From Stegostoma tigrinum (Eukaryota), in the NCBI RefSeq assembly GCF_030684315.1, contig NC_081393.1, positions 16,487,479 to 16,551,478 of the forward strand: a stretch of 64,000 bases of DNA. Direction: 5' to 3'. Positions 608 through 22,429 of this stretch are shown one piece after another. Position 1 is the stretch's first letter, and the number at the start of each line of letters is the position of its first letter. A model generated the notes under the pieces. The model was not told the origin of the DNA. It did no database searches and was given only the letters and a program-made list of their open reading frames with translations. Position numbers and translations under genes: made by a program.

Positions 608-817
<210 letters not shown>

Positions 818-1556
818 TAAGCCGTGTATGTGAGATCTTTGCGAGGGGCATTGCGCAATACCTATTGTTAAATCTCTCATTTTCTGTTTCACAGAATAAA
901 ATACTGCCACAGCTCTCCTATGGCCTTACCCATTGCACATGGGGCAGTGCATTCAGTCCGTTATACACAGCATTCATTTTCTCCGCTGCTTTTCACTGGT
1001 ATTTTCTGTTTATCTGCTTGAATATTTATTTTGGTCAAATATCTTTTGTGTACTGATTTCTTCCATTCTCTAGCAATCTCCAGCACAACTTCATTTGTCA
1101 TTCTCTCACTAAGGTGTGGAGAACATTCTTCTAAATGTCTACAGTTTATCAATAATCCCTTTGTTTGCTGATCATGTCTGAGTCACGTAAGCCAGATAAT
1201 AAAATGTAGCTGCTCACTCTTCCCTGGAGATTCAGATTTAGTTCCTTCATTCCAGCAAAGCTTGTTATACGACAGGTCCATTTAAAAGTAAAAGCAGACT
1301 CCTCTCCTTTCTCATGTTCCATTTCCAGTTCTGATAAAGTTATGCAGTTGAAAAAGGTGATGTACAGTTCAGGATAGTTGTGGAAATAATTCATGATTGT
1401 GTTCCCTTTTGGCACCTGCTTCATGTTGATGAGGATGATTAGGAGCTCACCCTGTGTGGTACGCAGCACATGCATCTTTTGTTTAACTAGCAAAAAAGTC
1501 CTGTTATACACATTCAATGGGCTAAATGTTTTTGTTTTTTCCACCCCTTCTGACAG

Positions 1557-2206
1557 GATTCTGGACAAACTGTAAGCTCCCAGACTACGAGGAAGTGGCA
1601 GGACACCCTCCAACACCCCCACCTCCTTATACTGAACTACAGCAGCAGAACACACAGACCTCTACCTATGAAAATGTGGTTGTCGAGAGCCAGCCTGCTT
1701 TACAGGAGTCTGTAAACTCACTTGCATTAGAGGCAACACAAGAAGCAGAGGCAACACAAGAAGCAGAGTCTAACTCATCCACTCATGAACAGGAGGATGA
1801 CCAGGTGTCTGATGACCCCACAGAGGTATCACCCACTTATCCAGCTGACAGAGAAAATGGTGACATTATTCAAGAGGAGGAATCTGCTGCACTCTCGGCC
1901 TCCGATTTTAAAATGTTGGATACGGATTCCGACCTATGTGATCAAGGGGAAGGGAAGGAAGAAAGCTCAAGGCATAGGCGGATCACAGGAGACTCTGGCA
2001 TTGAGGTGTGCGTGTGCCAGTTGGATGAGGACTCTTACCATGAGGAAGTGGGCCTGATGGGTGGTGTGAGCGCCTCTGAATGTTGCGAGTCCCCGTCATC
2101 TTATAGCTCTCACCTTCACACAGAGCAGCTCTCCAAGCAGGCTGCTAATACACACCCTCAACTGCATACTGCTAAAGAACGAGAGGAGGATGGTGACATT
2201 GTGTAG
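1557..2206 (+). CDS. WBP1: WBP1 last coding exon
   Basis: Pyrimidine tract and CAG acceptor at 1554-1556, phase-compatible with the previous exon (A|GA = Arg). Has the WW-binding motifs LPDYEEV and PPPPY plus the family motif RHRRITGDSGIEVC. TAG at 2204-2206. Confidence 0.9.
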
Positions 2207-5756: not shown

Positions 5757-5910
5757 AGAATCCCCACAATGTAGAAGCAGGCCATTCAGCTCCTCAAGTC
5801 CACAGAAACCTGAAGCATCCCTGTAACCCTGCATTTCCCATGGCTAATTAGCCTGCACAGCCCTGGATACACTGGGCAATTTAGCATGACATGTACATCT
5901 TTGGACTTGC
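5757..5910 (-). mobile_element. HE1-like SINE fragment
   Basis: Shares ccctgtaaccctgcatttcccatggctaa...gggcaatttagcatg...catctttggact with the longer copy at 49150-49484. Confidence 0.7.
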
Positions 5911-6608
5911 ATCTCAATCCTGTAAAGATATCAGCATCTTCCCTTGCTGAGCTCTACTTAAAGTCTTTTTCTTTTTCCGCCAGCAATGGATGCCAAACAC
6001 TCCAAGTGATGACCTATGAAGCAAATCAAAATTCGGAAAGCATTCTACTGATATAGCAGCGTAATGATTTCCCAAGCTCCCAGTACAAAGTAGTAACAAA
6101 CTGACTGCATTCTGAAAGCGAGAGAGCCACTGTTACTGAAGCAAATGGACATCAGGGATGCAGATGAAGTCAGAAATGGAGAAGTGCAGAGATCTTAGGA
6201 GAGGGAGTTAATTTGACAACCAGGATGGGCATTTCACTTTTGAGCATTAGCGGACATGAGATGTAGAAGGCAACACAAATACTTTGTGTATTTTGTTTGG
6301 TTAAATCATAAACACCAAACGGTTCAAAAATATATTGTGATGTCACAGTAACCCTGGTTGTCACAGTGTTTGTGACACCAAGAGTTGAAAATTGATCTAG
6401 ATACTTGCACATTGCATTTTCTTTCCCAGCTTTATCCTGCACACTCTATTTGCTACTCTCTCTCTTTCCAAGTGTGTTGTCTACTGCAACAGAACAATTT
6501 AGAGCAACTTTGCAAGAAATTCAATCTGAAAACCGAAAAACGTCACTGACTTTGGCACTCTGTCTCATGTTAAACCAGACCCCACTGGGGTCTGCTTCAT
6601 ATAACAGG

Positions 6609-7031
6609 ATGCTGGGCTGGGATGAGTACGTGAGAAGTTTGCTTGCGGATGGGTTATGCCAAGATGCAGCAGTATTTGCATGCTCATGGCCCAGGCTGCT
6701 GGCTGCCAAACAGCAAGGACTGTTTGAGCAAATGAGCCCTCAGGAAATCAAAGCCATTGTCAGCAGTGATCGGAAGACCTTCCTCGTCAAAGGGCTCACT
6801 GTTGGCGGTAAGAAGTGCTTTGTCATCAGAGATAACTTTCATGTGGATGGGGATTACACCATGGATATCAGGATGAAACGATGGGACAGCAACCATCCTT
6901 GCCACAGCATAGCCATTGCTAGGTCCAACAAAGTCTTCATCATGATTATGGGTAAGAGAGGGGTCCATGGAGGAACGCTCAACAAAAAGGCATTTCAGAT
7001 GGCAAACTATATTAGAAAGTCTGGCTGTTAG
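6609..7031 (+). CDS. Intronless profilin, PFN3-like (140 aa)
   Basis: MLGWDEY...SPQEI...DRKTFLVKGLTVGGKKCFVIRD...MGKRGVHGGTLNKKAFQMANYIR has profilin motifs and canonical length with no introns. An in-frame upstream ATG lies at 6567, a possible CAG acceptor at 6605-6607, and AATAAA at 7103-7108. Confidence 0.92.
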   Translation: MLGWDEYVRSLLADGLCQDAAVFACSWPRLLAAKQQGLFEQMSPQEIKAIVSSDRKTFLVKGLTVGGKKCFVIRDNFHVDGDYTMDIRMKRWDSNHPCHSIAIARSNKVFIMIMGKRGVHGGTLNKKAFQMANYIRKSGC

Positions 7032-8990
7032 GAAGTTGCCATTAAAAGCTGACTGCGGCTGCTTCTGTGGATGGTCATCGTAACAACATTGCAACTCTTT
7101 CAAATAAAAATTATTCATAGAAAAAACGGTTGAAATCCATACGTTTTATGCCCTTAAACTATAGAAATTGAGTTTGCAATGCTGAATACAACAGAAAAAT
7201 TACTTGCATTTATCTCCAATAAACATAAAAAAGGTTTGAGGGTTCACTGTTTCACTTTGAAAGGGTGAAAAACTGTGATGCATTGCAAAAGACAGAAGTA
7301 CAACAAGTACAGTGTAGGAATCGCTAAAATGTGCAAATATCCAATTACAACTTGCCATGTAAATGAGGCATAGAAACAATCTAATTCTCCTCCAATCATA
7401 CACAGAATATTGAGCTTCGTGTTCCACCAGTGACCAATCCGTTGGAACCAAGAGTCAAATCCATGACTGAAGGAAAAGGAGATCATGGCTCAGAATACAT
7501 GGCACTTCTAAACATGAGCCAGTTGATGCATCTCCAAAAGCCAGATCACTGCCCAGTTGGCTTCCGCAAAACAATAGATAAGTTAACCAAGGGGATAAGT
7601 CATCCTGGCAAACAGCCAAAAAGAAAATCTCATCCTGATTCATCATTAGTGACTGGCTGAGCTTTGATATTAATAGTAAATCCATTCCCAAGTTTCACTC
7701 AGGGGCAGCAGTCAGCTTTTTTTTAAAATAAAAAGTGAATCTGAAGCATTTTTGCAAATGAGTTTGTTTCTCACCTTCAAATGGCTGAATGAGCAATTGT
7801 AATAGGTTACGCCATTGTGATTTACCACAGGGCTATTTATAAATGATATTTATGGCACAGCTTGATTATCTGTTTCTCAGTATACTTAGCGCAGTTTGAT
7901 TCTGGACTTTAGGAGGAACAATACGGAGATCATACAGTGGAAACATTTCAAAGGAGACGCAGGGGCATCTGAGGATGTTGGTACACAAATCTTGAAGATG
8001 ACAGAACAAGGTGATCAAACTTCTGCAAAAGATCTGAATACCCTGACTTTATAACAAGAGACATAGACTATAAACAAATTAACCGTAGCTCATGTCACCG
8101 TTCAGCAAGACCATGTCAGATCTGACTGTGGTCTTAAGTCCTTACGTCCACCTTCTCTCCTTCCCCCAACAAAATGAGCCACACTACAAAAGGAAGCTAT
8201 GTTAAGCATTTATAAACTATTGATTAGACCTCAATTGCTATATTGTGTTTAATTTTAATTACCAGCCTTTAAAAAAATATCAAGGCCTTGAAGTGAATGC
8301 AGAGTTTACTTACAAGTGTAAGGGAAAGTTTAACATTTTGAATGAGAGAAACCTTACACTGGCAGCAGAGTCAGTAACCAGAGGATACGCTTCAAATAAC
8401 TGGCAAAGCAATCATATGGGGAGATTTTTCTTCAAATACATGAAGGCAGAAGGATCAAAAATGCATTTGTTGAAAGGACAATTGAAGCAGATCGATTTTA
8501 CCTTTTTAAAAGGAATTGTCACATACTTGAAATGACAAAATTTGAAGGGCAAAGGTTTACTCAGAGTCAGTGGAAATTTACAATTTAAAAACATTATCAA
8601 TCCAGCTAGATCTCCTCAGAGGCAGCAAAAGTACAGTGTGAGCTAATGGTGGCAGCGACTTTCATACATTTACAACTTAATCCCGTGCAAACTTATCAGA
8701 CAGAGGACAGCACTAAGTTTCTGAGTAAGCACCCACGTTAATCTAGAAACATGAACCTCACTTGCCCCAGTTCGTAGACTGGTTTAGCTCTCCGGAGAAA
8801 GACTGTGCATTTGTTGAATGCAGAACAGTTGGTAGAATATGCATTGTACTGAAAATCATTTTCATCTAAAATACTGTTCAGATTCTTGATCCTGTTATAA
8901 CTTTCCAACCCTGATAACAAGCAGATTGTGGTTCCATACAGTAAGAAACAGAAAACCAAGTTCAACTCCATCTTAAAAAGAAATGAGAAG

Positions 8991-8996
8991 TTTATT
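8991..8996 (-). terminator. Probable POLR3D polyadenylation signal
   Basis: TTTATT on + (AATAAA on -) with T/GT-rich sequence downstream on the minus strand. An alternative AATAAA lies at 10055-10060. Confidence 0.45.
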
Positions 8997-10391
8997 TCCA
9001 ATCCAAGATCCAAAAATACTCATCCAAACATAGCACAGCAGTGGAAGAGTTGCAATATGATTTTCCAAACTTGTTGTGATTTTAACATCCATTAAGTCAA
9101 GAACGAGGTTAACATAGCCTTAACCAGTTCCAATCCTGAGCTGTCCAAATCAATATTAACATTCAGACTCACTATACACTGGTCAAATAGATCACTGATT
9201 TAAGTGATCATCTTACAAAGGGCAGACGTTAAGCTCTGTGCTGTCAGTTTCCTCCTATACTGTAACATTGCTCAGCACAAGCCTTTTCAAGAGTGCAAGA
9301 GAGAGTGAAAATGTGCAAAGATCCTCTGGCCAGTCATACATTTAAGATGCAATTTTAAAGTATTAGGATTTCAGGACAATTTGTGTTATGAGAAACCATT
9401 AGAACTGTGAAAAGCACCCAGCAGCACAATTAAAAATTATGCTTTGTCTCTGAGTTACACAAAACATTGATAGAGTTTTGAGGGATGCAATTCTGACACT
9501 AAAAATGGGTGTCAGTCTAACCATGACTTATGAAAGCTATAGGTAAACCATAAAGCACTACTAAACTATTGTGGTTAATAGTGCCATGCCCTAGTAAACT
9601 TAAGGAAAAGATATTCTAAGAGGTCCCACAAATTATAGGATTTCTTTGGCTGAAACCACATCATAAAACATCATCTAAGTCACCGAGACAACAATGCCAA
9701 ACTAAAATAATTTAGCAGGAAAGCTGACATAGCACAGCAGAGTGCTGTTACAGTGTGAGACACAATCTAAAATCTTCATTCCCACCCAAACCAGGACATC
9801 TCCTAACTTGCAATACGTGGAGTGTCGAATGTTTTTGATGCTGATCTTGTTACCTGACCAAAGTCCAGCAAGCAAGAAGAATCAAATGGAACATTAACTT
9901 TCTGTTCCTGACAGCATGGATTCAAACTAGAACGAAGTCTGAATGTGAACTCTCAAGAGTTCAAACTCTTGGATCACAACTGTGCAAAGATTCCACCAGC
10001 TCTCAAAGACTGACCTCGGGTCAGCAAGGCTGATGGCCCTGGATCTCACTGCCTTTTATTCTGAAAATATTGCTGATTCGTGTACAACTGTTCCCACAGT
10101 TCAGTATTGCTTCCACGATCGTCTCTCAAAATGATTTGTGGACATTACCTTGCTGACTGCCAGCAATTAATAGAGAAGCCAGACCAGATATATCCTCATT
10201 ATGACATATACACAGCCATAAAGAGAAAGTCTCATTCCAGTTTCCCTTGAGAACTGGCTGCTCATTTCTCTGCAAAGCCGTCCTGCATTCCCCAGCTCAG
10301 GGAATGCAAGAGCAGCTCACCCTGCCACCTGCTTCTGTCTTGGTGTTGCAGGTGCTGTGCTGCCTATTGACATGTACATCTCAAATTCCAG

Positions 10392-10511
10392 CTAATGCCT
10401 CTGCTCAAGGAGAGATTCAAAGTCAGGGGAACAGACTAACTTGTGTTTCACATGTCCCAGCACCGTCATTTCACCAGTCCGGTTCTCTCCGAATCCAATA
10501 GAAACCAGCTC
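10392..10511 (-). CDS. POLR3D: RNA polymerase III subunit D (RPC4), last coding exon
   Basis: ELVSIGFGENRTGEMTVLGHVKHKLVCSPDFESLLEQRH* matches the RPC4 C-terminus. AG acceptor. Not in the ORF track. Confidence 0.93.
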   Translation of the reverse strand, partial: ELVSIGFGENRTGEMTVLGHVKHKLVCSPDFESLLEQRH

Positions 10512-11130
10512 CTTAGAGAAGGACAACAACAGAAATTAAGTAAGTGGAATGATCAAGATGGAAGTTTCATAGCTGTTTGCAAGGTAGGGAGCTAAGACTA
10601 GGGCTAGGGCATGGGCAAGGGCACAGAGACCTTCACAATGTCCCGTCTCAAAGCAATTCACAGCTGACACATTTGCACTTGTAATAACTCCACTGCTCCT
10701 TCTCAAAGCATACCATGATAGCTTTCACATCCATCTGCAACGGCAGAAGGGTCCTCTGTCTAATGGCACATTTGAAAGGCAGCACCTCCAACTGTGCAGC
10801 TCTTCCTCCTTGCTACGCAGGAGAGTCATCCTAGATTACATGCTCCAGCATTTCTGGTGTGAACCGACCGGCTTAATCTCAGTCTGCTGCTAGGGAGAAG
10901 GAATGGATTTTGAAGTGGGGACCCAGTCTTCAAAGCTTTAATGAGAGGAAATGATTCGTTTTGTAACAAACTGAGTCCCACAACCATGACAGTATCTCCA
11001 AATTAATGACATGAGCCCCAGCAAAACAAAATGCCTAAGCTAAACACCCAAGTTAGGGGACTCCTCTCAGGGAAAAATAAAAAGCTTACAGTAAACCGCT
11101 TCCCTACTTAGGAAAATGTGTATAAAATAC

Positions 11131-11283
11131 CTGGAGAAATGAACAGGTTGTGCCCATGGTGACATCCAGGATGACCTGTCCCAGTACAAGCTGCACTCTC
11201 CCCGACTTTCTGATCAGCAACTTTCCAATCTGACCTTCAGTTAAATCCATCAGCGAGCAGGAATTCTCAGCTTGTTTCAGTTC
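11131..11283 (-). CDS. POLR3D: POLR3D coding exon 7
   Basis: ELKQAENSCSLMDLTEGQIGKLLIRKSGRVQLVLGQVILDVTMGTTCSFLQ, 153 nt, AG/GT flanks, phase 0. Confidence 0.93.
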
Positions 11284-11999
11284 CTGAAGGACACACATAC
11301 ACACCGATTCGTTACAGAGCTGTTCAATTTAACTGTACTGCATAGGCCAAAAGTAGCATCCAGTGCTCCTGGCACATTAGATTACAGTTTGTGTTTCTAT
11401 TCCGGGAATAATAGACAGGGAATAAACTAACTGGATTGCAAAATGCTGGAAACAGCCTTTAAAATGTGTCTTATTTCCCAAGTTCATCTTTTATATAAAT
11501 TTGCCTGTAACTCATTCCCAGGCATCGATAATTCCACATATAAAACCTCGCGAACTGGTCAATTATATTTTAATGTGTAACTCACTACTGAGTTTCTCTT
11601 ATTCTATATATGAGCCACACAAACTCCTTGATTAGATTCCATTCTGTAACTTATTCCCAGATGTTATTTAAACATAAATCATCTGAATTCTTCAATTATA
11701 TTTCAGCCTACAGTAACACAGTCTTGCATATCTGTTACTTTAAGTAAAAACTTGCCAAACCTCGATTAGGTTCCAGTCTGTATCTCACCCCTGGTTGATG
11801 TTATTCTATGTATAAACCACGTGAATTCCTCAATTAAATTCCATTCTGTAAGTCACCCTGCTTATCCCAGCACTTGATGCTTTTTATCACAAAACAGAAG
11901 CGCAACAGGTATTTTTCCAATTCACAAAAACATAGGTGCAGTTTTGGAAATAGCTGGAGATCGACGAGTAGCCCTAGCTGGATGTTCCCCAGTACAGAC

Positions 12000-12244
12000 C
12001 TGAGCCTTCTCTTGCTTGAGCTGCATAGCCTGGCCATCGTCAGCCTGAACCTCAGCTTTTACAGGTTTCTCATCGCGAGTGGGAGCCTGGCCAGGCAGTG
12101 TGTCAGGTAGCTGCAGAAACAGAAGTTCGTCATCTTTACGCACACTAAGCTCTTGAAGCAGCTCAGACACCGAAACCTCCTTCTGCACAGCCTGGGTCAT
12201 CTTCGACATCTGCATTTCTTTGGCAACTCCAGGTTCATCCTTAA
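12000..12244 (-). CDS. POLR3D: POLR3D coding exon 6
   Basis: Contains ELLFLQLPDTLPGQ, 245 nt, AG/GT flanks, phases consistent. Confidence 0.92.
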
Positions 12245-12469
12245 CTGAAAACAGAGCAATGATTCTAAGTGATTATACACTGTAGATTTTATAAACCACA
12301 GGCAGTATATTGAAAGATTGGAAAAAGATAATTTCATCTGGCTTTTTAACACTCCCCTCTCAAATGGAGCCAACTACTCTTCAACAGCTCATGCAAGTGA
12401 GTGAGTTTGTACTTGAATATTGCTGGATTACACCACCATGTAGCACTCTTGCCTTAATCAGAGTTTTGG

Positions 12470-12670
12470 GGTTCAATTTCCGCTCTAGGACTTGAGCACA
12501 TTATCTACGTTGACAAAGGCCATGCAGTACTCAGGTGCATTGTCAGAAGAGCTGTCTTTCAAGAAGAGACAACAAACAGTCTGCCCTCTCAGCTGGCCAT
12601 TAAACATCTCTCAGTCTTATTCAAAGAAAGGCAGGGAAGTTCTCAGTGGTCTCCTAACCGTGACTGAGCA
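12470..12670 (+). mobile_element. Old SINE, SacSINE1/Deu-domain-like
   Basis: ggttcaa...gacttgagcaca...cagtact...gctgtctttc...ctgccctctcag pattern. Similar degenerate copies at about 140-420, 10630-10860, 29290-29690, 37220-38190, 46300-46590, 55220-55440 and 59470-59830. Family name from memory. Confidence 0.5.
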
Positions 12671-13837
12671 ACAACACTTGGACAGTATTTCCCACACAAC
12701 ACTGATGAAATTACGGTGATGCAGGGGTTAATGTTGAACCTACTGCATAATCCACCCTAGAAGTATTCCTCAAAATGAAGATTCAGATAGTAAAACCATG
12801 ACAAAGTAAGAACAGACAAATGCCAATGAGGAAGTGTTGCCAATGCTGTAGCAATAACCAGTTCCCTTGGTGCTAAATTCAGATGCTTTCATATGGACAT
12901 GTCAGCTACAACATTTCATAATGGAACAAACTGGATCTTAAAGAAGTGAGCCGAAACTACCTTGGTCTGAAATTTCTACCTCAGTTAACCATATACAATT
13001 TATTACCGACAAAAAAAGCACATTTTGTACAAACTTTTTGTCTTGCATTCAGCAGAACAATTCATAAGAACACATTTCAAAGAGGGTGTGGTGGGGTTTT
13101 GGCAGGGCAGGGAGGGAGTGAGAAAACATTCACACTATGACAGAAGTGCACTGATTACTTACCAAGTGAACACCAGCTGGTACAGGCATTATCATGGGGA
13201 ATGCAGCATCTAATGATGATTGACAGCTAACAGGTTTTGTTTAAATTTTAAACCAGGCAGGTTGACTGATTAGTCAGGGTGTCGTCCTGAGAAATGAACC
13301 AGGAACTGGTTGTCACCTGTGTTGTGGAGTTGAAAGGGTGCAGTATATGTACATGTTCTTTCTAACTGCAACAAAAAAGGTCTGCATATTAATACATGCA
13401 GCTTCCATGTTTCTGTAAATGTCATTCTGCAAAGCGGACTGACAATCTTGGTTGTCAGTTCAGTTTAATCCTTTGCGTACTCAGGATTATACAGCATATA
13501 TTGCCCAAATGCAGAATCGCACCTGATATTGGCAGACTTTGTTGAAAACATTTAAGTACGGGCTGGCTGGATGCAGTCTGTACTTTATTAATAGAGTCAC
13601 ATAGTCACATAGCACATAAACAGACCCTCCATGCCAACCATAATCCCAAACTCAACTAGTCCCACCTGACAGCTCCTGGTCCATATCCCCCCCAAACCTT
13701 TACTCTTCCTGTACTTATGCCTTGGGGGCGTACAGCTTATATAGCTAGCGTCACAACAACATTGAAACTCATATACCACATTACTTCTTTGTGATATGTA
13801 GAATTTCTTTTGGGCTTTACAACAGGATTTATAATAA

Positions 13838-14052
13838 CAGTGCAGAGCTGGAGGAGCACAGCAGGCCAGGCAGCATCAGAAGAGCAGGAAAGGAGGACGT
13901 TTCGAGTCAGGACCCTTCTTCAGAAATGAAGAAGAGTCCCGTTCCTAAATGTCAACTTCCCTGATCTCTGATGCTGCCTGGCCTGCTGTGCTCCTTCAGC
14001 TCCACATTGTTATCTCTGACTCCAGCATCGGCAGTTCTTGCTGTCTCTGAGC
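13838..14052. mobile_element. Palindromic miniature Penelope-terminus element with hammerhead motifs
   Basis: Inverted arms of about 90 bp centred near 13925, then a ~40-nt tail. Flanked by ATTTATAATAA at 13827-13837 and 14053-14063. Confidence 0.8.
13896..13923 (-). ncRNA. Minimal type I hammerhead ribozyme motif (intact core)
   Basis: Minus strand reads CTGAAGA-agggtcctgactc-GAAAC-GTC. Confidence 0.6.
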
Positions 14053-14580
14053 ATTTATAATAATGTCTTTTTCTTAGCAACACAAGTTTGTACTACAGAA
14101 CAATATATTACATACTTAACAAAACATGACCTTTTTTTAAAAAAAATCACACAGTTTAGCACTCAAGGTCATGATGCTGGGACTAAGAGTCCAATTAACT
14201 CCTAACTGAGCTAGCCAGGCAAAGTTCTAGTCTGCACAGGCAGATAATGGTCTGTTCCATGAAGGCAGGCTATAATTGATATATTCATTGTTATATATTT
14301 TCTCTTTGCATTTTCTTCTTTGACTTTGTCATTGATTTGCTATCCTCATCACCATTTGAGGAATATAACGTTCATAGAACAAGGTTTTAAATCTCACCAA
14401 TGCGCTTTAGTCAACTGGAAAGGCATCGGGAACAGTGACCCATTCTCGAGGTGATAAATCCAGATGGCTTTGAATGGACGTGTCAACTACAACATTTCAT
14501 ATTGGAACAAATTGGATCTTAAAGAACTGGCTCCAACTGCCTTGTCTGAAATTTTTAGCTATAGTGCAGGCTAAGTGCCA

Positions 14581-14678
14581 GTTCTGAGAAAGGGTCACCA
14601 GACCTGAAACGTTAACTCTGATCGCTTCTTCACAGATGCTCCCAGACCTGCTGAGCTTTTCCAGCAACTTCTGTCTTT
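14581..14678 (+). mobile_element. Short Penelope-terminus/hammerhead-derived insertion with 10-bp TSD
   Basis: ctgagaaagggtcaccagacctgaaacgtta... flanked by CTAAGTGCCA at 14571-14580 and 14679-14688. Confidence 0.7.
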
Positions 14679-15160
14679 CTAAGTGCCACACACTACTGTC
14701 CCCGATTCTTTTCCTGTCATCAGTAGGAGTTCGATCTAGCCACTAAAATCACCCATATAGATTATGCGGTCATCGTCACACTGTTATTAGTAGAGCCTTG
14801 TTGGGCATTAAGTGGCAGCTGTGATTCCCAAATTATGACAGTAACCACACTTCAAAAGCGCTTCACTGGCTGTAAACACATTTGGATGTTTCTGATGTTG
14901 GGAGAAGTACCTTATAAGTGCAAGTAATTCCTTTGACATGTGGGAGGTACCCATCACAATTGAATCTACCTGCAATCACTCGGTGTCCCGATGCTGCGGG
15001 ACTCTACAGGTGCACAAATTCTGATAATAAAACTTTTTAACAACTCATTCCCTGCCTTTCCATTCTGAATGATTCCTCCCTGTCTACCATCATCATTAAA
15101 TTGCTATAACCCCACTGCCTCACATTCTCCACAACCTTGACAGTGTGTTGTCACACTCAC

Positions 15161-15326
15161 CTTTCACAGAGGAGATATCCAGCTCCATCTTCTCTTCCTT
15201 GGCCAGCACGGCAGGTTTCATCCCCTCATCCTCCACTTCCTCCTTGAACAGCCAGCCTGACTGTGCCAGTGGCAGCTGGACGGGCATGTTTCGGGCATCG
15301 TTTTTTAGACCAGGATCATCAATGAA
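15161..15326 (-). CDS. POLR3D: POLR3D coding exon 5
   Basis: FIDDPGLKNDARNMPVQLPLAQSGWLFKEE..., 166 nt, AG/GTGAGT flanks. Confidence 0.92.
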
Positions 15327-16005
15327 CTACACACAAAGAAACATACTCGATGGATGGGTAACACAAGACAGAAGTTAATGACTACATGAAGGCTCTGAGA
15401 GAAAAGAAATGCAGAACGTAAGGGAGTGAATAGTCAGAGTCTCTGTCTTAGCTCTAGGCTAATATTGGCTTCATATGAAATGCCATTGAAACTAGTCTGG
15501 CCCAAGTTCCCAAGTCTGCTTTATCTGTTCTAAAGTCAGTCGTGGCCCCAGTGTCCAACCCAAGAATAATCGTTATTTCGACATAACTCTGTCCCTTCTG
15601 ACAGGCACCAGTTCTCCTCATGGTATGGAGTCTCTTGTCTAAGCACGAGACTTGATAGCAACTGTAAGGAAGGTATTCTACAAACAGGGCACAAGAGGCG
15701 AACTTAACACTGATCTTCGATTGATGTCTCCATATGCTATGAAGTACCAGCCATGACCCCCTCAATTACTCACTGCCACCTTCTTTATTTAAATGGTAAA
15801 AGGCCTACTGTGATCGAAGAGATTAGTTAACTTTACTCAGTCCCAGAACCAATCATAGGCTTCCTGATTTTCATTCACATCGAGACACTCATTCTTCTTG
15901 AATTAACCTCTTTTCTCAACTCAACCATGTCTGTCATCAGTGTCCAAGCCCCAAATCTAGGGCACTGGGAAACAATGTAAGTGCTCCCCCTAAGCCACTA
16001 CTTAC

Positions 16006-16130
16006 ATCATCACGGTCCAGCATTCGGAGAATCTGTTTGGTTTCCTCTTCTGACTCACGCTTTTCTTTCTTTATATTAATAATTGGGGATGTTCCAAACT
16101 CCTTCATATCCACGGAGGAATCCCAACCAG
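16006..16130 (-). CDS. POLR3D: POLR3D coding exon 4
   Basis: GWDSSVDMKEFGTSPIINIKKEKRESEEETKQILRMLDRDD, 125 nt, AG/GTAAGT flanks. Confidence 0.92.
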
Positions 16131-17482
16131 CTGTGAAGAAAAATGGAGATGTATCAAGATAAATAAATGAAATATATAAAAATAGTTAGCAGGTCATTAC
16201 AAGGAACAGCACAACAACTGGGCAATTGCTAATTATGAACAAACTGACCTGGTTAACACGCTGTCATAATTTAGAACGTACTTAGCACTTGTATTGTTTG
16301 TTGGAGGATGGCTTGGTTGGTGAGCTCCGTTTAGTTCTAAATTATTAAATGATGGTCATTAACTGTTTCTAGCTGCCCTAAATCAGTGGAACAAACGCAA
16401 AGCCCCAGGTGTCATTTTCCTTCAACGTTCTGTCCCTCTCCTTTCCACTGCAGTTTTGGATAGAGGCATGGACACATGCTTCCTTTCTACATCGTGGAGG
16501 CCAACTCAAAGTCACAATTTGGAACAGGATCTCTTAGAAGACTAAAGGAAGAGAAAAGAGGTAAGAGTGACAAAGGAAAGCCAATGCTCAGCACCACTGA
16601 GTGGGAAGGCAACACTTACGTGTGCTGTTACACTGAGCATGAGTGACAGGGAGGAGGAGCAGGATCACAGCTTAGGCATCCAAGAATGGAAGCGAATTAA
16701 GCCGATAGCCAACTGCTGCCTACTAGCAGCGCCAGTCTCGCCTAGCACCAGGCATTTGGAAAAGCCGACGTAGCCTTTTGGCTGCACAGGCATCCAAAAA
16801 GATAAATCAAACCATACATGAAAACAAAACTGAATTAGATGCCCTGCCTCAGAGTAAGCTCACCAAGTCATTCATGAGATACTTGCAACTTTCAGTGAGG
16901 CCCGACAATCCGTAGGAGTCTGCACGTAACAGGTTCTATCTACAAGGGTTGCTCAATTTGATGCCAGTGTCTTTGAATTCCATAATGCCAGATCTAGGGC
17001 ACCCCTGTGTGAACCTGACTTAAACAGATCAGAGCAAACAGCCACTCTCTGTACTGAAATGCAGTGCAACCACAGCATTCTGCAGTGCCAAAGTACACGA
17101 CATGAAGGATTTGGATATTGTACATGAAGAGAAGTCATTTCCGGTGGTTGAAGGGTCAATAACCAGACGGCACCTTAAAGGTGACAGCAATGAACCAGGA
17201 GACACATAACAACATCATCTCATGAAAGAACCAGTTAAGTTTTTGGAAGATCCAGCAGGAAGCCGAAGAGAGAATTAGATTAAATATTTAAAATGTGACA
17301 AATCTACAGAGACATGGAGAAAAAACAAGGGATACCAACTGACTTGACTGCTCTTTAGAAGAGCTAGTGCCCACTCAACAGGCCAAATTGCCTCACTTCC
17401 TGTTATGCACAATTCTAGGAATATAAACTGGAAGAAGCAAGAGAATGTAAAACTTGATAATGGTTTCATTCCAGTGTCTCAC

Positions 17483-17637
17483 CTTTTTTCTTCCTCATTT
17501 CAGCAGGTCCCTGCTCAAAGATAGAGTGGGATTGAATTGTTTCGGGTCTGCCTCTTCCCCTGCCCCGCGCCTCCCTCTGGCGATCCTTGTCTCGTTCTTT
17601 CTTCTCTTTCCTCTGAGAGGCATTGTCCTCCTTTGGT
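17483..17637 (-). CDS. POLR3D: POLR3D coding exon 3
   Basis: ...RGRGRGRPETIQSHSIFEQGPAEMRKKK, 155 nt, AG/GTGAG flanks. Confidence 0.92.
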
Positions 17638-19122
17638 CTGCAAGTAAAGTAAATTTGAGGGTAAAGACATCAAGTGATGCAAATGAGTGCCGTGAAACTC
17701 AAAACCAAGAGCATGTTTTTCACGTGAAAGGAGATTAACATCAGCGAGTAGGTTGACAAGACATTACTGACTACCTTCAGCAGCCTGCAGATCTGGGTGG
17801 TGCACATGCTAGTCTTTCATGTGATACCAACACATGGAGCAGAGGAATTAATAGCAGGAAATCCAGAAACTGTAAAGTAAAATCATGCAACACTCGCCAG
17901 ACTTGATCTGACACAACCTCGTCCAATCATTAATTTCATGCTTCCAAACACGCATGGACCCATTTATAGTACATTGAAAAATTCTGAAATTAACATGCTC
18001 TGAATCTTAGATTTCATCCACCCACACCATTCTCACATCCAGTGGCAGTCCTGTCCCCTGCCAGTATTTAACCCAGTACTAGCCAGCTCCAAGGGGTCTC
18101 TCCATGCTTGACTCAGGAACACGACCACTGGGTTGTTTACGCTCCCTGTGGACATAGCAGCAAATCTGTCACTGCATTGTGCCAAAACAGAAGTTAATCT
18201 ACTGACTGAATTGCAGACACTTAATGCGTATGCATTCACTTTAGAAAATATTGTTGAGGCTGGCTTAGGCACGGCTTTGAGTTTAATATTCAACAGTTAA
18301 TTTGAGTCGAGTTTTGTAATGATCAAGCTAGCAAGGTATTCATATTATATTTGGTTAGTTGCAGTCAACATACACATTATCTTTCAAGTGAGAATGGCCA
18401 CATGGTTTTAATACTGTTTCCATTTTGGAACAAGTATGTATATTTAAGTTCATACATTCTACAGTAATGTGGTGTGGTCTAATAAGATTTGTTGTAAATA
18501 TGCAATGTATTTTCCCCAATAAATATGCAGTGATTTTCTTTTGTTAACTTGGTCCCAGGCAACAGCAGTTATTGCGTCATATTAGTAAAGGGTTCTTTTC
18601 GATATAACGTATTGATGGGATTTGAAACCCCCCCAGAATATTTAGATCAATTAGACCTTGAGGATGACATTACTCATTATGATGTTACATGACACATCCT
18701 TCAAGCAGGTGTCCCTATCTCAGTGGAGATCTATATAAACTCAACAAACAGGGAAAAATGAGGATCCCACAATTTACTGACATTTTCGGGAATCAGTCAC
18801 GAGATAGAAGAAAGTGATATCGTTAAGCAGACCATCGCACTTAACAAACCAACCAGGAATTGGCACACATTGTTAATTCAAACCAAGATCAATTTTGTGC
18901 AGTTCATGTGTTGGCAAGTTTACTAGGATTGTGCCACAGATCATGTAGCATCTTAGCAAGGGTCATGTACAGGAGTAGTGGCTAGTAAAGGTTAACAATC
19001 ATTAATTTTTAACAATCCAGAACATCACAGTCAGACTAGACAGAAAGACTTTCGTCAACAGGAGATGGGCCTGGTCAGCCTGAAGTCAGATGCCCTGCGT
19101 TCCAACACAGACAGACTTATTT

Positions 19123-20255
19123 CAGTGAAGTGTTTGATAAGGTTCCCCATGGGAGGCAATTGCAGAAAATTTGGAGGCATGGGATTGAGGGTGGTTTAGC
19201 TGTTTGGATCAGAAATTGGCTAGCTGGAAGAAGACAGAGGGTGGTGGTTGATGGGAAATGTTCATCCTGGAGTTCAGTTACCAGTGGTGAACAGCAACGA
19301 TCTGTGTTGGGGCTACTGCTGTTTGTCATTTTTATAAATGACCCGGTTGAGGGCGTAAAAGGCTGGGTTAGGAAATTTGCGGAGTTGTAAAGTTGGTGGC
19401 GCTGTAGATATTGCACAACAATGTTAGAGGTTACAGAGGACATAGATAAGTTGCAGAGCTGGGCTGAGAGGTGGCAAATGGAGTTTAATACGGAACAGTG
19501 TGAGGTGATTCACTTTGGAAGGAGTAACAGCAATACAGTGTACTGGGCTAATGGTAAGATTCTTGGTAGTGTGGACAAGCAGAGAGATCTCAGTGTCCAT
19601 GCGCATAGATCCCTAAAAGTTGCCACCCAGGTTGACAGAGTTGTTAATAAGGAGTACGGTGTGTTAGGTTTTATTGGTAGAGGGATTGAGTTTCGGAGGT
19701 CATTCTGCAGCCTGTACAACACTTTAGTGCGGCCGAAGTTGGAGTATTGTGTACAGTTCTGGTCGCCACATTATAGGAAGGATGTGGAAGCATTGGAAAG
19801 GGTGCAGAGGAGATTTGCCAGGATGTTGCCTGGTATGGAGGGAAGGTCTTATGAGGAAAGACTGAGGGACTTGCGGCTGTTTTCGTTAGAGAGAAGGTGG
19901 TTAAGGGGCGACTTAATAGAGACGTACAAGATGATCAGAGGATTAGATAGAGCGAGCCTTTTTCCTCGGATGGTGATGGCTAACACGAGGGGACATAGCT
20001 TTAAATTGAGAGGCGATAGATATAGGACAGATGTCAGAGGTAGATTCTTTACTCAGAGTAGTAAGGGCATGGAATGCACTGCCTGCAACAGTAGTAGACT
20101 CGACAACTTTAAGGGCATTTAAACGGTCGTTGGATAAACATATGGATGATAGTGGAATCGTGTACATTAGATGGGCTTCAGATTGGTTTCACAGGTCAGC
20201 ACAACATCAAGGGCCAAAGGGCCTGTACTGTGCTGTAAGTTTCTATATTCTATGA
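19123..20255 (+). mobile_element. 5'-truncated CR1 (HER1-like) LINE, frameshifted, in a POLR3D intron
   Basis: RT motifs FDKVPH, SVLGLLLFVIFIND, KFA and the CR1 C-terminal LEYCVQFWSPHY...RGHSFKL. Simple-repeat tail ttctatattctatg. Confidence 0.93.
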
Positions 20256-20956
20256 CTGACTGAACCATTGCTTTAATTAAGTATCTTTATTTTGTATTTG
20301 TTGTGACTATTCTATGAAACATGTGAAACAAATCATACACAGAGTGGTCTCGAATCTAATGAGAACTGAAGGCTCTGTTAGATTGCTGCTTTTTCAATTC
20401 AGTCTTATTGCAATAACACCCAATTGTGAGATTTCACTCAAAGTTGTGCATTCCAAACTTACAAGTAGATCTAGGAATGTACAAGATGTTCTCAGGTCTG
20501 CTTGCACAGGTACAGTCAATGCCTAATTTTGTTTTCTCACTAAGGAACCTGATCTGCACCATGTTCTGATTTTAAATATACATTACCTTCAACTCATTTC
20601 AAAAAGTGGAAATGGATCTTTCAGAGAAAGTAACATTGACAATAAATGATGGGAGACTGTCACAGTTTCTGCAGAGTAAAGCAATCACTAGTCCAACAGG
20701 CAAGTCAAGCATACCAGAGGTACCCAGCTCCTCCTAGTGGATATTTTTGCCTTACAATCTGATAAGCTTTTAGCCTCTGATGAGTGACTTGGCAGACAGC
20801 ATGTATTCGGCAAATGGAGGCCATGTGCATTGACCCACAGTTCTGCACTTGTTTCCCTAGCTCTTGTGGATAACTTGCCAGATGAAGCATCTTAATTACC
20901 ACTCAAATTAATTTAAAATCTATGTCACAAATTGCCTGGAGCAAACATATACTCAC

Positions 20957-21000
20957 TCTTCCTTAACCTTCCTGGTGATGATGTTGGGAGTGAATGTTTT
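20957..21000 (-). CDS. POLR3D: POLR3D coding exon 2 (44 nt)
   Basis: KTFTPNIITRKVKE, CAG acceptor and GTGAGT donor, keeps the frame. Confidence 0.9.
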
Positions 21001-21402
21001 CTGCAAAAGAGGACATCATAATGAAACAGTGCTGACAACACAATCCATGTTACAATTTACATGCTGTGATCACTGCAGTGACACTCCGAGTCAGCAGTAC
21101 ACCTACTACCATTCCCCTGCTTTCTCTCCATAACCCTGCACATTCTTTGCTTTTAGAGCACTCTCTTTTGAAAGCCTGAATGGCTTCACACTCTCAGGCA
21201 CATTCCTGATCCTAATCACTCACTACATAAAAACGTTTAATCCTCCCATGGCCTTGGCTGGTTTTGCCACTTCTCTTGCATCTGAGCACTTCAATTCCTA
21301 ACCTACCAACAATGGGAACTGTTTCGCACACACGGCCCTCGCCGCACCCCTCCCACCCCATCTACTTTGTCCAGATTCTGAAAATCTCCAAATGGTACTG
21401 AC

Positions 21403-21567
21403 CTTTTTCATCCCTCCCAGTGTTAGGTCCCGTGAGCGGATGGAGGGCAGGCGGCCTGGGGTAACGGTGGCAGAGCTCCGTCGACCTGGCAGGCCCCTAG
21501 CTACTGTTACAGCGGGCCTGATGGTGCTGGGATGGCCAGCACCTCCACTGGGGCCTTGCTCAGACAT
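21403..21567 (-). CDS. POLR3D: POLR3D first coding exon
   Basis: MSEQGPSGG...TPGRLPSIRSRDLTLGGMKK, 165 nt of CDS. The acceptor at 21582-21583 implies an upstream non-coding exon. Joined CDS is 1173 nt (390 aa plus stop). Confidence 0.92.
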
Positions 21568-22429
21568 CGCTGCTTCGCAATCTGCACGACAAAGAACAAA
21601 TTAGTACCGCGGCAAAAACTGTGCCAGTTGGGGAACAGAGGAGATCTCACAAAACCAGAGCCTTAGAACCTCATCTGAGGGCATACCTGTACAGGAGAAT
21701 CTCCAAGCTTTACCATAACCGTGGGCATATGTATTATCACAAATTTGGCAACCTCTGCAGAGGTTGCTCCAAGCTGGTCAAAGAACCAAAATGCTGCTGT
21801 GATGAATACAGCCAGGATCAAGCTTCTGCCATGGACATCATAAAACAGCAGATCAAAAGCCACTGTGGAATACAGAGTGGCTCACAGAAACACTGCATTT
21901 GGCCCATCAAATCGATGCCAACTCTTTGCAGAAGCACAAAGTGATGTAACGCAAGCAGCCAGGAACAGAGTGCTACAAGAAGCAGACTGTGGTGCTGCCA
22001 TTCTGAGGCAAATATTTTCAATCGACATATTCAGGGGATTGCCTTTTTCTTACATCTGCTGAGACTCCAGCTTCCAACAGCAAGGCAATAGCTGCCATGT
22101 AGCTTCAGCCAGTCTTTCAGTTGTGCTGTCTCACTGAATCTTACAGTACACAGCTCCAAACAACTTTTGTTTTGTTTACTTGATTCAATATTTTGAGACA
22201 CTTGGGGTAAACATTTATACACAACACTCGAGAAACTGAACCCGTCTAAGACAAAGCATCCGACTGGATTTACACCCCAACCACAATCAAAAACTAGGGA
22301 CGACCTTGGCAGAACTAAAAGGGGAGGGAGGTAAAATTAGGCTCGGATGTAAATGTTTTGCGTAGCTGGATGCTTTCCAACATCAAAGAGGATTTCGTGA
22401 TAAGACCAGTCTTTGTGAAGCTTCAACTC

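What the first reader, a model, noticed from the sequence alone, without database searches (positions are those of the whole stretch)
6609..7031. Intronless PFN3-like profilin next to WBP1: candidate ohnolog lost in mammals
Seen: an intact single-exon 140-aa profilin with its own poly(A) signal, 4.4 kb downstream of the WBP1 stop codon. Known: mammalian PFN3 is intronless, shares the SPQE..DR.TFL and MG.RGVHGG.LNK signatures, and lies on 5q35 near PRR7, a WBP1-family gene. 5q35 and 2p13/8p21 belong to one vertebrate paralogon, and I know of no profilin beside human WBP1 or POLR3D. Inference: the WBP1-profilin pair mirrors PRR7-PFN3, so this may be an unnamed whole-genome-duplication paralog of PFN3 kept in cartilaginous fish.
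Basis: partly seen in the sequence, partly recalled or inferred. Interest (0 to 1): 0.7.

Follow-up and report, generated by a model that had tools for sequence, protein, structure and literature searches.

The report
Ancient shark copy of profilin-5
This intact single-exon shark gene for an actin-regulating protein is likely the counterpart of Pfn5, a testis gene working in mice but broken in humans and apes, which would make Pfn5 as old as jawed vertebrates rather than a sister gene that mammals lost.

Summary
In detail: an intact, single-exon 140-aa profilin with AATAAA, 4,402 bases after a WBP1-family stop codon, 80-94% conserved in sharks and rays. The reading 'PFN3-like, lost in mammals' mostly fails. 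The protein groups (98/96 support) with a family found in teleosts, amphibians, turtles, alligator, squamates and placental mammals; the mammalian members are Pfn5 (testis-specific in mouse, pseudogene PFN5P on the human X). The family shares loss of Trp31 and Gly23 and a one-residue deletion. A turtle gene model joins PFN5 to ATAD1-type exons, and an ATAD1-type gene lies 23 kb from the shark gene, so this site is likely ancestral and the mammalian X position a later move. The neighbour is likely a third WBP1/WBP1L paralogue, not WBP1. Whether PFN5 and PFN3 are whole-genome-duplication sisters stays open (about 40%). A tree joining the shark gene to PFN3 was not rejected (p 0.078). Expression was not shown. 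The scan had not noted this gene before; it had noted the second PFN3-type gene on other DNA.

The parts
6609..7031 (+). Single-exon profilin CDS, 140 aa; likely orthologue of Pfn5
   Evidence: model pLDDT 89, TM 0.92 to mouse profilin-2a
6567..6569 (+). Upstream in-frame ATG (154-aa reading), weaker start context, probably not the main start
   Evidence: named orthologues are 140 aa
6336..6347 (+). TGTGATGTCACA, a one-mismatch CRE-like near-palindrome 271 bases before the ATG; candidate CREM-type germ-cell promoter element (inferred)
   Evidence: the same 8-mer lies within 170 bases of the ATG of both other intact intronless profilins; background 66 of 3564 300-base windows
6541..6545 (+). 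CGTCA half-CRE 68 bases before the ATG (short; may be chance)
   Evidence: half-CRE definition in PMC3091680
7103..7108 (+). AATAAA polyadenylation signal (use not shown)
650..2206 (+). 3' exons of a WBP1-family gene, likely a third WBP1/WBP1L paralogue; upstream neighbour
   Evidence: Pfam WBP-1 hit at window 650-814; last exon 1556-2206
10307..21600 (-). POLR3D (RPC4), convergent downstream neighbour; limits approximate
   Evidence: Pfam RNA_pol_Rpc4; CT..AC splice joints 10510/11130 and 11282/11999 in run X6; ORFs

Best explanation
The gene is an intact intronless profilin that is likely the shark orthologue of Pfn5, likely still at the family's old autosomal site, and predicted to act as an actin-monomer-binding profilin with a weakened polyproline site, probably in male germ cells. 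Shown: intact frame, profilin family, conservation across sharks and rays, grouping with the Pfn5 family, residue pattern, neighbours in this genome. Inferred: origin by an ancient retroposition before sharks and bony vertebrates split; later move to the X in the mammalian line; testis expression. Predicted mechanism: it keeps Arg74, Arg88, Lys90, His119 and Lys125 of the actin face (Phe59 to Leu, Tyr128 to Phe), so it would bind G-actin; it keeps Trp3, Tyr6 and Tyr133 but has Leu for Trp31, Cys for Phe139 and Ser for Asn9, so it would bind formin/VASP-type polyproline tracts more weakly or more selectively than PFN1/2. Reptile and mammal PFN5 have mostly also lost His119 and Lys125, so the shark protein would be the least derived form. 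Odds: orthology about 0.85; ancestral site about 0.7; testis role about 0.6; binding pattern about 0.55.
For: Orthologues in 9 named shark and ray species (80-94% for the 4 cluster representatives). Tree of 46 proteins: shark clade + 16 bony-vertebrate rows is one side of a starred branch, 98/96; 94/94 in a first 53-row tree; 954 and 948 of 1000 bootstrap trees with only reptiles or only eutherians kept. Inside the group amphibians, then mammals against turtles, alligator and squamates follow the species tree. The 153-aa eutherian family (51 clusters) is Pfn5: P0208 matches the mouse Pfn5 printed in Supplemental Fig. S4I of PMC6886504 nearly letter for letter. Trp31 is replaced in 11 of 11 shark/ray, 7 of 7 teleost, 2 of 2 amphibian, 15 of 15 reptile and 50 of 50 eutherian rows, and kept in 18 of 20 PFN3-type, 7 of 7 filled PFN2 and 5 of 5 PFN1 rows; Gly23 is absent from 84 of those 85 rows and present in 19 of 20, 7 of 7 and 5 of 5; the gap at position 26 is in 84 of 85. 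Of 140 columns the shark consensus matches reptile PFN5 alone in 14, PFN3 alone in 8, PFN2 alone in 3, PFN1 alone in 3. A profile built without sharks scores the protein 160.9 bits against 150.3 (PFN2), 146.1 (PFN3), 138.5 (PFN1); shark PFN3 gets 123.2 on the same PFN5 profile. Site: turtle model P0289 joins two ATAD1-type exons to PFN5, and an ATAD1-type gene lies about 23 kb from the shark gene. Turtle PFN5 is on a 16.5-Mb sequence in Dermochelys and on 288-303-Mb sequences in 5 pond-turtle and tortoise records, fitting a microchromosome fused to chromosome 2 (PMC11529993 section 6). No profilin on C18, which carries an AMER plus myotubularin pair like the one around human PFN5P (human neighbours recalled). 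Binding residues are those listed in PMC2694148.
Against: Trees that hold the shark clade with the PFN3 group are not rejected (AU p 0.257; p 0.078). 140 residues and long PFN5 branches leave room for long-branch attraction; in the eutherian-only tree the mammals fall inside the shark clade on a 1.65-long branch. Raw identity is higher to PFN2 (49%) than to turtle PFN5 (44-46%) or mammal Pfn5 (35-36%). The C-terminal motif MG.RGVHGG.LNK is in 11 of 11 shark rows, 6 of 20 PFN3-type rows and 0 of 74 bony-vertebrate PFN5 rows. Trp31 is also Leu in 2 of 20 PFN3-type rows. The turtle ATAD1 fragment cannot be assigned to one shark ATAD1 paralogue (52.4 v 47.4 and 47.4 v 47.8 bits for C24 v C52), and P0289 is a mis-joined automatic model from one species. 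No other genome's interval could be read directly. Binding and tissue were not tested.
Confidence: 0.8

Rival explanations
1. It is a shark-and-ray-only paralogue of PFN3 that mammals lost; its likeness to Pfn5 is convergence plus long-branch attraction.
For: Not rejected by AU tests (p 0.257; p 0.078); 8 columns shared with PFN3 alone; mammalian Pfn5 is on the X, not beside POLR3D.
Against: 5 of 1000 bootstrap trees, 36 and 41 of 1000 in reduced sets; three shared changes with all PFN5 groups; ATAD1-type exons beside turtle PFN5.
Confidence: 0.1
2. It is an independent old retrocopy of PFN2 made in the shark and ray line, as the automatic name 'profilin-2-like' suggests.
For: Best solved-structure and identity match is PFN2 (49%); PFN2 here has introns, so a retrocopy origin is natural.
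Against: Shark clade + PFN2 rejected, AU p 0.016; 0 of 1000 bootstrap trees; only 3 columns shared with PFN2 alone.
Confidence: 0.05
3. Within the best explanation, on origin: PFN5 arose by its own retroposition from an early PFN2-like gene, separately from PFN3, and only happens to lie in a block paralogous to the PFN3 block.
For: PFN5 group + PFN2 not rejected (AU p 0.313); the trees are unrooted; intronless profilins move: no profilin in 200 kb around SLC34 on C15, the C50 PFN3-type gene lies between an SREBP gene and a TRIOBP-like gene (TRIOBP recognised from memory), Pfn5 is on the mammalian X.
Against: PFN5+PFN3 groups form one side in 816, 885 and 880 of 1000 trees, PFN5+PFN2 in 3, 32 and 19; shared Asn76 and basic residue 116 against Ser and Glu in PFN1/2; LMAN2-type genes lie near both blocks; same CRE-like 8-mer upstream of all three intact intronless genes.
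Confidence: 0.45

Closest known systems
Mouse Pfn5 (Gm45800) / human pseudogene PFN5P (Mudge et al. 2019, PMC6886504; HGNC note in PMC7779007)
   Same: Single exon; same tree group; Trp31 and Gly23 lost, same one-residue deletion, Phe128.
   Different: Mammalian protein is 153 aa, on the X, and has Cys for Tyr6 (41 of 50), Glu for His119 (46 of 50), Leu for Lys125 (47 of 50); only about 35% identical; the shark protein keeps these residues. The paper describes mouse, dog and apes only in the passages seen.
PFN3 (testis profilin, antisense to SLC34A1; PMC2694148, PMC8877773)
   Same: Intronless; Asn76, basic residue 116, Leu59; actin face kept, polyproline site partly lost.
   Different: Separate starred clade (100/99); PFN3 keeps Trp31 and Gly23; this genome holds its own PFN3-type genes on C50 and C3, 44% and 36% identical to this protein.
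PFN2 (profilin-2a); NCBI automatic name 'profilin-2-like' for the shark orthologues
   Same: Highest identity (49%), same fold (TM 0.92, rmsd 1.4), 140 aa.
   Different: PFN2 has introns and lies on C17; grouping rejected; Trp31 and Phe139 kept in PFN2.

Membership tests
Profilin family | Profilin domain and fold | tested here: met
   Pfam E 9e-23; model pLDDT 89.4, TM 0.92 to 2v8c
Profilin family | Actin-face residues (Phe59, Arg74, Arg88, Lys90, His119, Lys125, Tyr128) | tested here: met
   5 of 7 identical, Phe59 to Leu, Tyr128 to Phe (list from PMC2694148)
Profilin family | Full polyproline site (Trp3, Tyr6, Asn9, Trp31, Tyr133, Phe139) | tested here: not met
   3 of 6 kept; Asn9 Ser, Trp31 Leu, Phe139 Cys; PFN3 and PFN4 also depart from it
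Profilin family | Binds actin, polyproline and PIP2 in vitro | not testable with these tools
   needs biochemistry
PFN5 (mouse Pfn5 / PFN5P) | Single exon with full-length likeness to PFN1/2 | tested here: met
   definition from PMC6886504 supplement
PFN5 (mouse Pfn5 / PFN5P) | Groups with Pfn5 in a protein tree | tested here: met
   98/96, 982 of 1000; alternative with PFN3 not formally rejected (p 0.078)
PFN5 (mouse Pfn5 / PFN5P) | Shared diagnostic changes (Trp31 lost, Gly23 lost, gap at 26) | tested here: met
   diagnostics were derived here, not from a paper
PFN5 (mouse Pfn5 / PFN5P) | Same neighbours as other PFN5 genes | tested here: inconclusive
   Not the mammalian X site; ATAD1-type neighbour shared with one turtle model
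PFN5 (mouse Pfn5 / PFN5P) | Testis-specific expression | tested here: inconclusive
   No run on record as RNA holds it; contigs give no tissue or strand
PFN3 | Member of the PFN3 clade | tested here: not met
   PFN3 group is a separate 100/99 clade; 5 of 1000 trees join them; AU does not reject
PFN3 | Tail-to-tail with SLC34A1 | tested here: not met
   SLC34 hits on C15, C37, C1, not C52
PFN2 retrocopy | Nests with PFN2 | tested here: not met
   AU p 0.016
Ohnologue of PFN3 | Lies in a paralogous block | tested here: met
   WBP1-family, ATAD1-type and LMAN2-type genes have paralogues on C24 and C15; PHYHIP, BMP1/tolloid and PRKG-type neighbours; human positions recalled
Ohnologue of PFN3 | Sister to the PFN3 group in a rooted tree, split dated to the vertebrate genome doublings | tested here: inconclusive
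   82/82 unrooted, PFN5+PFN2 not rejected; no jawless-fish row identified

The most novel reading that the evidence does not exclude
One retroposed, germ-cell profilin existed before the vertebrate genome doublings and gave a set of ohnologues: PFN5 (this locus), PFN3 and the PFN3-like gene beside LRPAP1. PFN5 stayed beside ATAD1-like/WBP1-like/POLR3D in sharks and turtles, moved onto the X in mammals, shed its actin-face and polyproline residues stepwise, and died in apes; the shark protein preserves the starting state.
Probability: 0.4. Interest if true: 0.65.

Novelty: new member of a known kind. Interest (0 to 1): 0.5.

Why it matters
Pfn5 was described in 2019 as a mouse testis gene with an ape pseudogene, and the searches here found no study of its age or function. 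If the orthology holds, vertebrates have carried this third germ-cell profilin since before sharks and bony fish split, hidden under the labels 'profilin-1-like' and 'profilin-2-like', and humans lost a very old gene. The series shark (actin face intact), reptile (His119 and Lys125 mostly changed), mammal (Tyr6 mostly lost too) is a ready test of how a profilin gives up its ligands. It is an annotated gene in a known family, so the surprise is moderate.

Tried and rejected
Expression: no RNA holder listed. Runs X1, X2, X4, X5 and X3, X6, X7 are contigs of mostly related species; X6 shows spliced POLR3D joints and two low-depth contigs over the profilin ORF, but also an intron contig, and X1 and X3 cover non-coding flanks, so nothing is concluded. 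PFN3 beside SLC34A1: no hit better than E 0.35 with 10 profilin queries in 200 kb of C15, while the same queries find the C50 gene. No profilin in 180 kb around the two other WBP1-family genes or 100 kb around the C24 ATAD1. The identity of the WBP1-family neighbour was not obtained from the protein Atlas; it rests on neighbours and recalled human sequences. The Atlas search with P0002 only said 'profilin'. No paper passage naming the chicken chromosome that fused to turtle chromosome 2 was found; 'chicken 22' is recalled. Polet et al. 2007 (vertebrate profilin phylogeny) is not held; only its title was seen, and it may bear on novelty. Literature searches found Pfn5 as a profilin gene only in PMC6886504 and PMC7779007 (2 of 6 'Pfn5' listings opened; the other 4 seen as listings only); supplements 1 and 8 of PMC6886504 were not searched. 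No named chimaera, gar, coelacanth, lungfish, bird or marsupial PFN5 appeared among the 44 hits or 51; these word-seeded searches cannot show absence. No complex with actin was predicted: no actin sequence was at hand and a pass would follow from solved profilin-actin structures. Trp27 is not a stand-in for Trp31 (Trp in 1 of 11 shark/ray rows).

Full report
OBSERVATION. Bases 6609-7031 (+) encode a 140-aa protein in one open frame that matches Pfam Profilin end to end and folds as a profilin (pLDDT 89.4; TM 0.92 to mouse profilin-2a). AATAAA lies 72 bases after the stop and the WBP1-family stop 4,402 bases upstream. A DNA run reproduces 5820-12500 without a difference. Four protein clusters from sharks and rays are 80-94% identical; their members come from 9 named species, mostly labelled 'profilin-2-like'. 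The gene is real, old within sharks and rays, and already annotated under an automatic name.

PROFILINS OF THIS GENOME. Searches of the own genome give this gene (C52), intact intronless genes on C50 and C3, a second C50 copy whose frame departs near the end, and exon-sized hits on C17 (PFN2-like; intron after codon 44), C58 and C4. The C50 and C3 proteins fall in the PFN3 group (100/99) with proteins named profilin-3 or profilin-3-like. So the window gene is not the genome's PFN3.

THE FAMILY IT BELONGS TO. A search of 1.84 billion representatives (best 150 of 240 hits listed) showed divergent profilins that share the window protein's 'LLA' strand; names gave newt, frog, cobra and pocket mouse. 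The pocket-mouse protein opened 51 clusters of about 153 aa, all named ones from placental mammals. PMC6886504 (passages of the main text and of supplements 3, 4, 5, 9 seen) names this gene Pfn5: single exon, testis-specific in mouse, 'likely formed by retro-insertion', human PFN5P at chrX:64,405,660-64,406,074 with an ape-wide premature stop. P0208 matches the printed mouse sequence nearly letter for letter. A profile search (44 hits) added turtles, alligator, lizards, snakes and teleosts (clupeiforms, a mormyrid, a whitefish). Shark+PFN2 is rejected (p 0.016); shark+PFN3 is rare (5 of 1000) but not rejected (p 0.257; p 0.078). Three changes mark the group: Trp31 lost (85 of 85 rows against 2 of 32 filled rows of PFN1/2/3), Gly23 lost (84 of 85 against 1 of 32) and a gap at position 26 (84 of 85). 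Profiles without sharks rank PFN5 first (160.9 bits; PFN2 150.3, PFN3 146.1, PFN1 138.5).

THE SITE. On C52 the order is PRKG-type (-), ATAD1-type AAA ATPase (-), WBP1-family (+), profilin (+), POLR3D (-), PHYHIP (+), BMP1/tolloid (-), with an LMAN2-type gene 0.3 Mb on. POLR3D-PHYHIP-BMP1 is the human 8p21.3 order (recalled). The genome has three WBP1-family genes: the C24 one lies beside CYP17A1, as human WBP1L does (recalled); the C1 one lies between an MA3-domain gene and IDH3B and resembles human WBP1 most (recalled); the window's gene is thus likely a third paralogue. Its last exon scores E 3e-11 to the C24 gene and 2e-8 to the C1 gene. The mammalian Pfn5 neighbourhood (AMER1, MTMR8; recalled) maps to C18:33.3-33.4 Mb, where no profilin was found. 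Two hints put PFN5 at the shark-type site outside mammals. First, the turtle model P0289 joins two decayed ATAD1-type exons to a complete PFN5; the fragment fits either shark ATAD1 paralogue about equally, but only the C52 one has a profilin nearby. Second, turtle PFN5 sits on a 16.5-Mb sequence in the leatherback and on 288-303-Mb sequences in pond turtles and a tortoise, the pattern of a microchromosome fused to chromosome 2 (PMC11529993 section 6 read; PMC8609325 passages); that it is the chicken-22 homologue is recalled.

THE OHNOLOGUE QUESTION. For: the C52 block has paralogues on C24 (WBP1L, ATAD1) and C15 (LMAN2-type, RBD gene read as RGS14, SLC34), and C3 (RBD gene read as RGS12, FAM193, LRPAP1) carries a PFN3-type gene; PFN3 and PFN5 groups form one side of the tree in 816-885 of 1000 replicates and share Asn76 and a basic residue 116. 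Against: PFN5+PFN2 is not rejected (p 0.313), the trees have no root, and these genes move: no profilin lies next to SLC34 on C15 and the C50 PFN3-type gene lies between an SREBP gene and a TRIOBP-like gene. I put it at 0.4.

HOW IT LIKELY WORKS. By the residue lists of PMC2694148 (abstract and passages seen) the shark protein keeps 5 of 7 actin-face residues with two conservative changes, keeps the PIP2-related basic residues 74, 88, 104, 107 and 135, and keeps 3 of 6 polyproline-site residues. It is therefore predicted to bind G-actin and phosphoinositides but to dock weakly or selectively on formin/VASP-type tracts, much as PFN3 binds mDia3 but not VASP in that paper. Reptile and mammal PFN5 have Gln or Glu at 119 (14 of 15; 46 of 50) and Leu or Met at 125, and mammals Cys at 6. 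A germ-cell role is inferred from mouse Pfn5 and from a one-mismatch CRE (TGATGTCA) 271 bases before the ATG; the same 8-mer lies before the C50 (3 copies) and C3 (1 copy) genes, against 66 of 3564 background 300-base windows. The motif was picked after seeing the window, so only the other two genes count as a test. CREM sites in spermatids are often one-mismatch or half CREs (PMC3091680 passages). Expression itself was not shown.

NOVELTY. Five paper searches found no account of PFN5 outside mammals; the one vertebrate profilin phylogeny known to me by title (Polet 2007) could not be read. Other papers were seen as passages only (PMC7779007, PMC8877773, PMC7464131, PMC10620051, PMC4898815). 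The scan's notes hold nothing like this sequence and two notes on PFN3-type genes in other genomes. Verdict: a new, deep member of a named but barely studied gene family; interest 0.5.

Noticed in passing
L022:596-1015 (G000:C3:128.86 Mb, +): Second intronless PFN3-type gene just downstream of LRPAP1, 0.3 Mb from an RGS12-type RBD gene and 1.6 Mb from FAM193; groups with a coelacanth 'profilin-3-like' (99/98) and, in 954 of 1000 trees, with frog PFN3. This, not the window gene, is the better candidate for a PFN3 ohnologue lost in mammals.
   Followed up: partly
L011:463-873 (G000:C50:4.595 Mb, -) and L004 (C50:4.455 Mb, +): The shark PFN3-type gene lies between an SREBP gene and a TRIOBP-like gene, not beside SLC34A1; an inverted second copy 140 kb away leaves the frame near its C-terminus.
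   Followed up: partly
L063-L082 (G000:C15:71.85-72.05 Mb): SLC34A1-type gene is followed by an aminergic GPCR (HRH2/HTR4-like) and a forkhead gene; no profilin, so the mammalian SLC34A1/PFN3 antisense pair is absent here.
   Followed up: yes
window:650-2206 and L052: A third WBP1/WBP1L paralogue with PPxY motifs; I know of no intact counterpart at human 8p21 (recalled).
   Followed up: partly
L043-L051 (G000:C52:16.39-16.47 Mb): Second ATAD1-type gene and a PRKG-type kinase gene with two alternative coiled-coil first exons; the turtle counterpart of the ATAD1-type gene looks decayed (P0289).
   Followed up: partly
L038, L040 (G000:C58:0.26 Mb): Strongly diverged intron-containing profilin, possibly the shark PFN1.
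   Followed up: no
window:22340-24440: About 2 kb purine-rich low-complexity tandem array in the first intron region of POLR3D.
   Followed up: no
window:6634-6636 region / residue 27 (codon at 6687-6689): Trp27 in this genome where 10 of 11 shark/ray rows have Cys; related-species contigs read T at 6689.
   Followed up: partly
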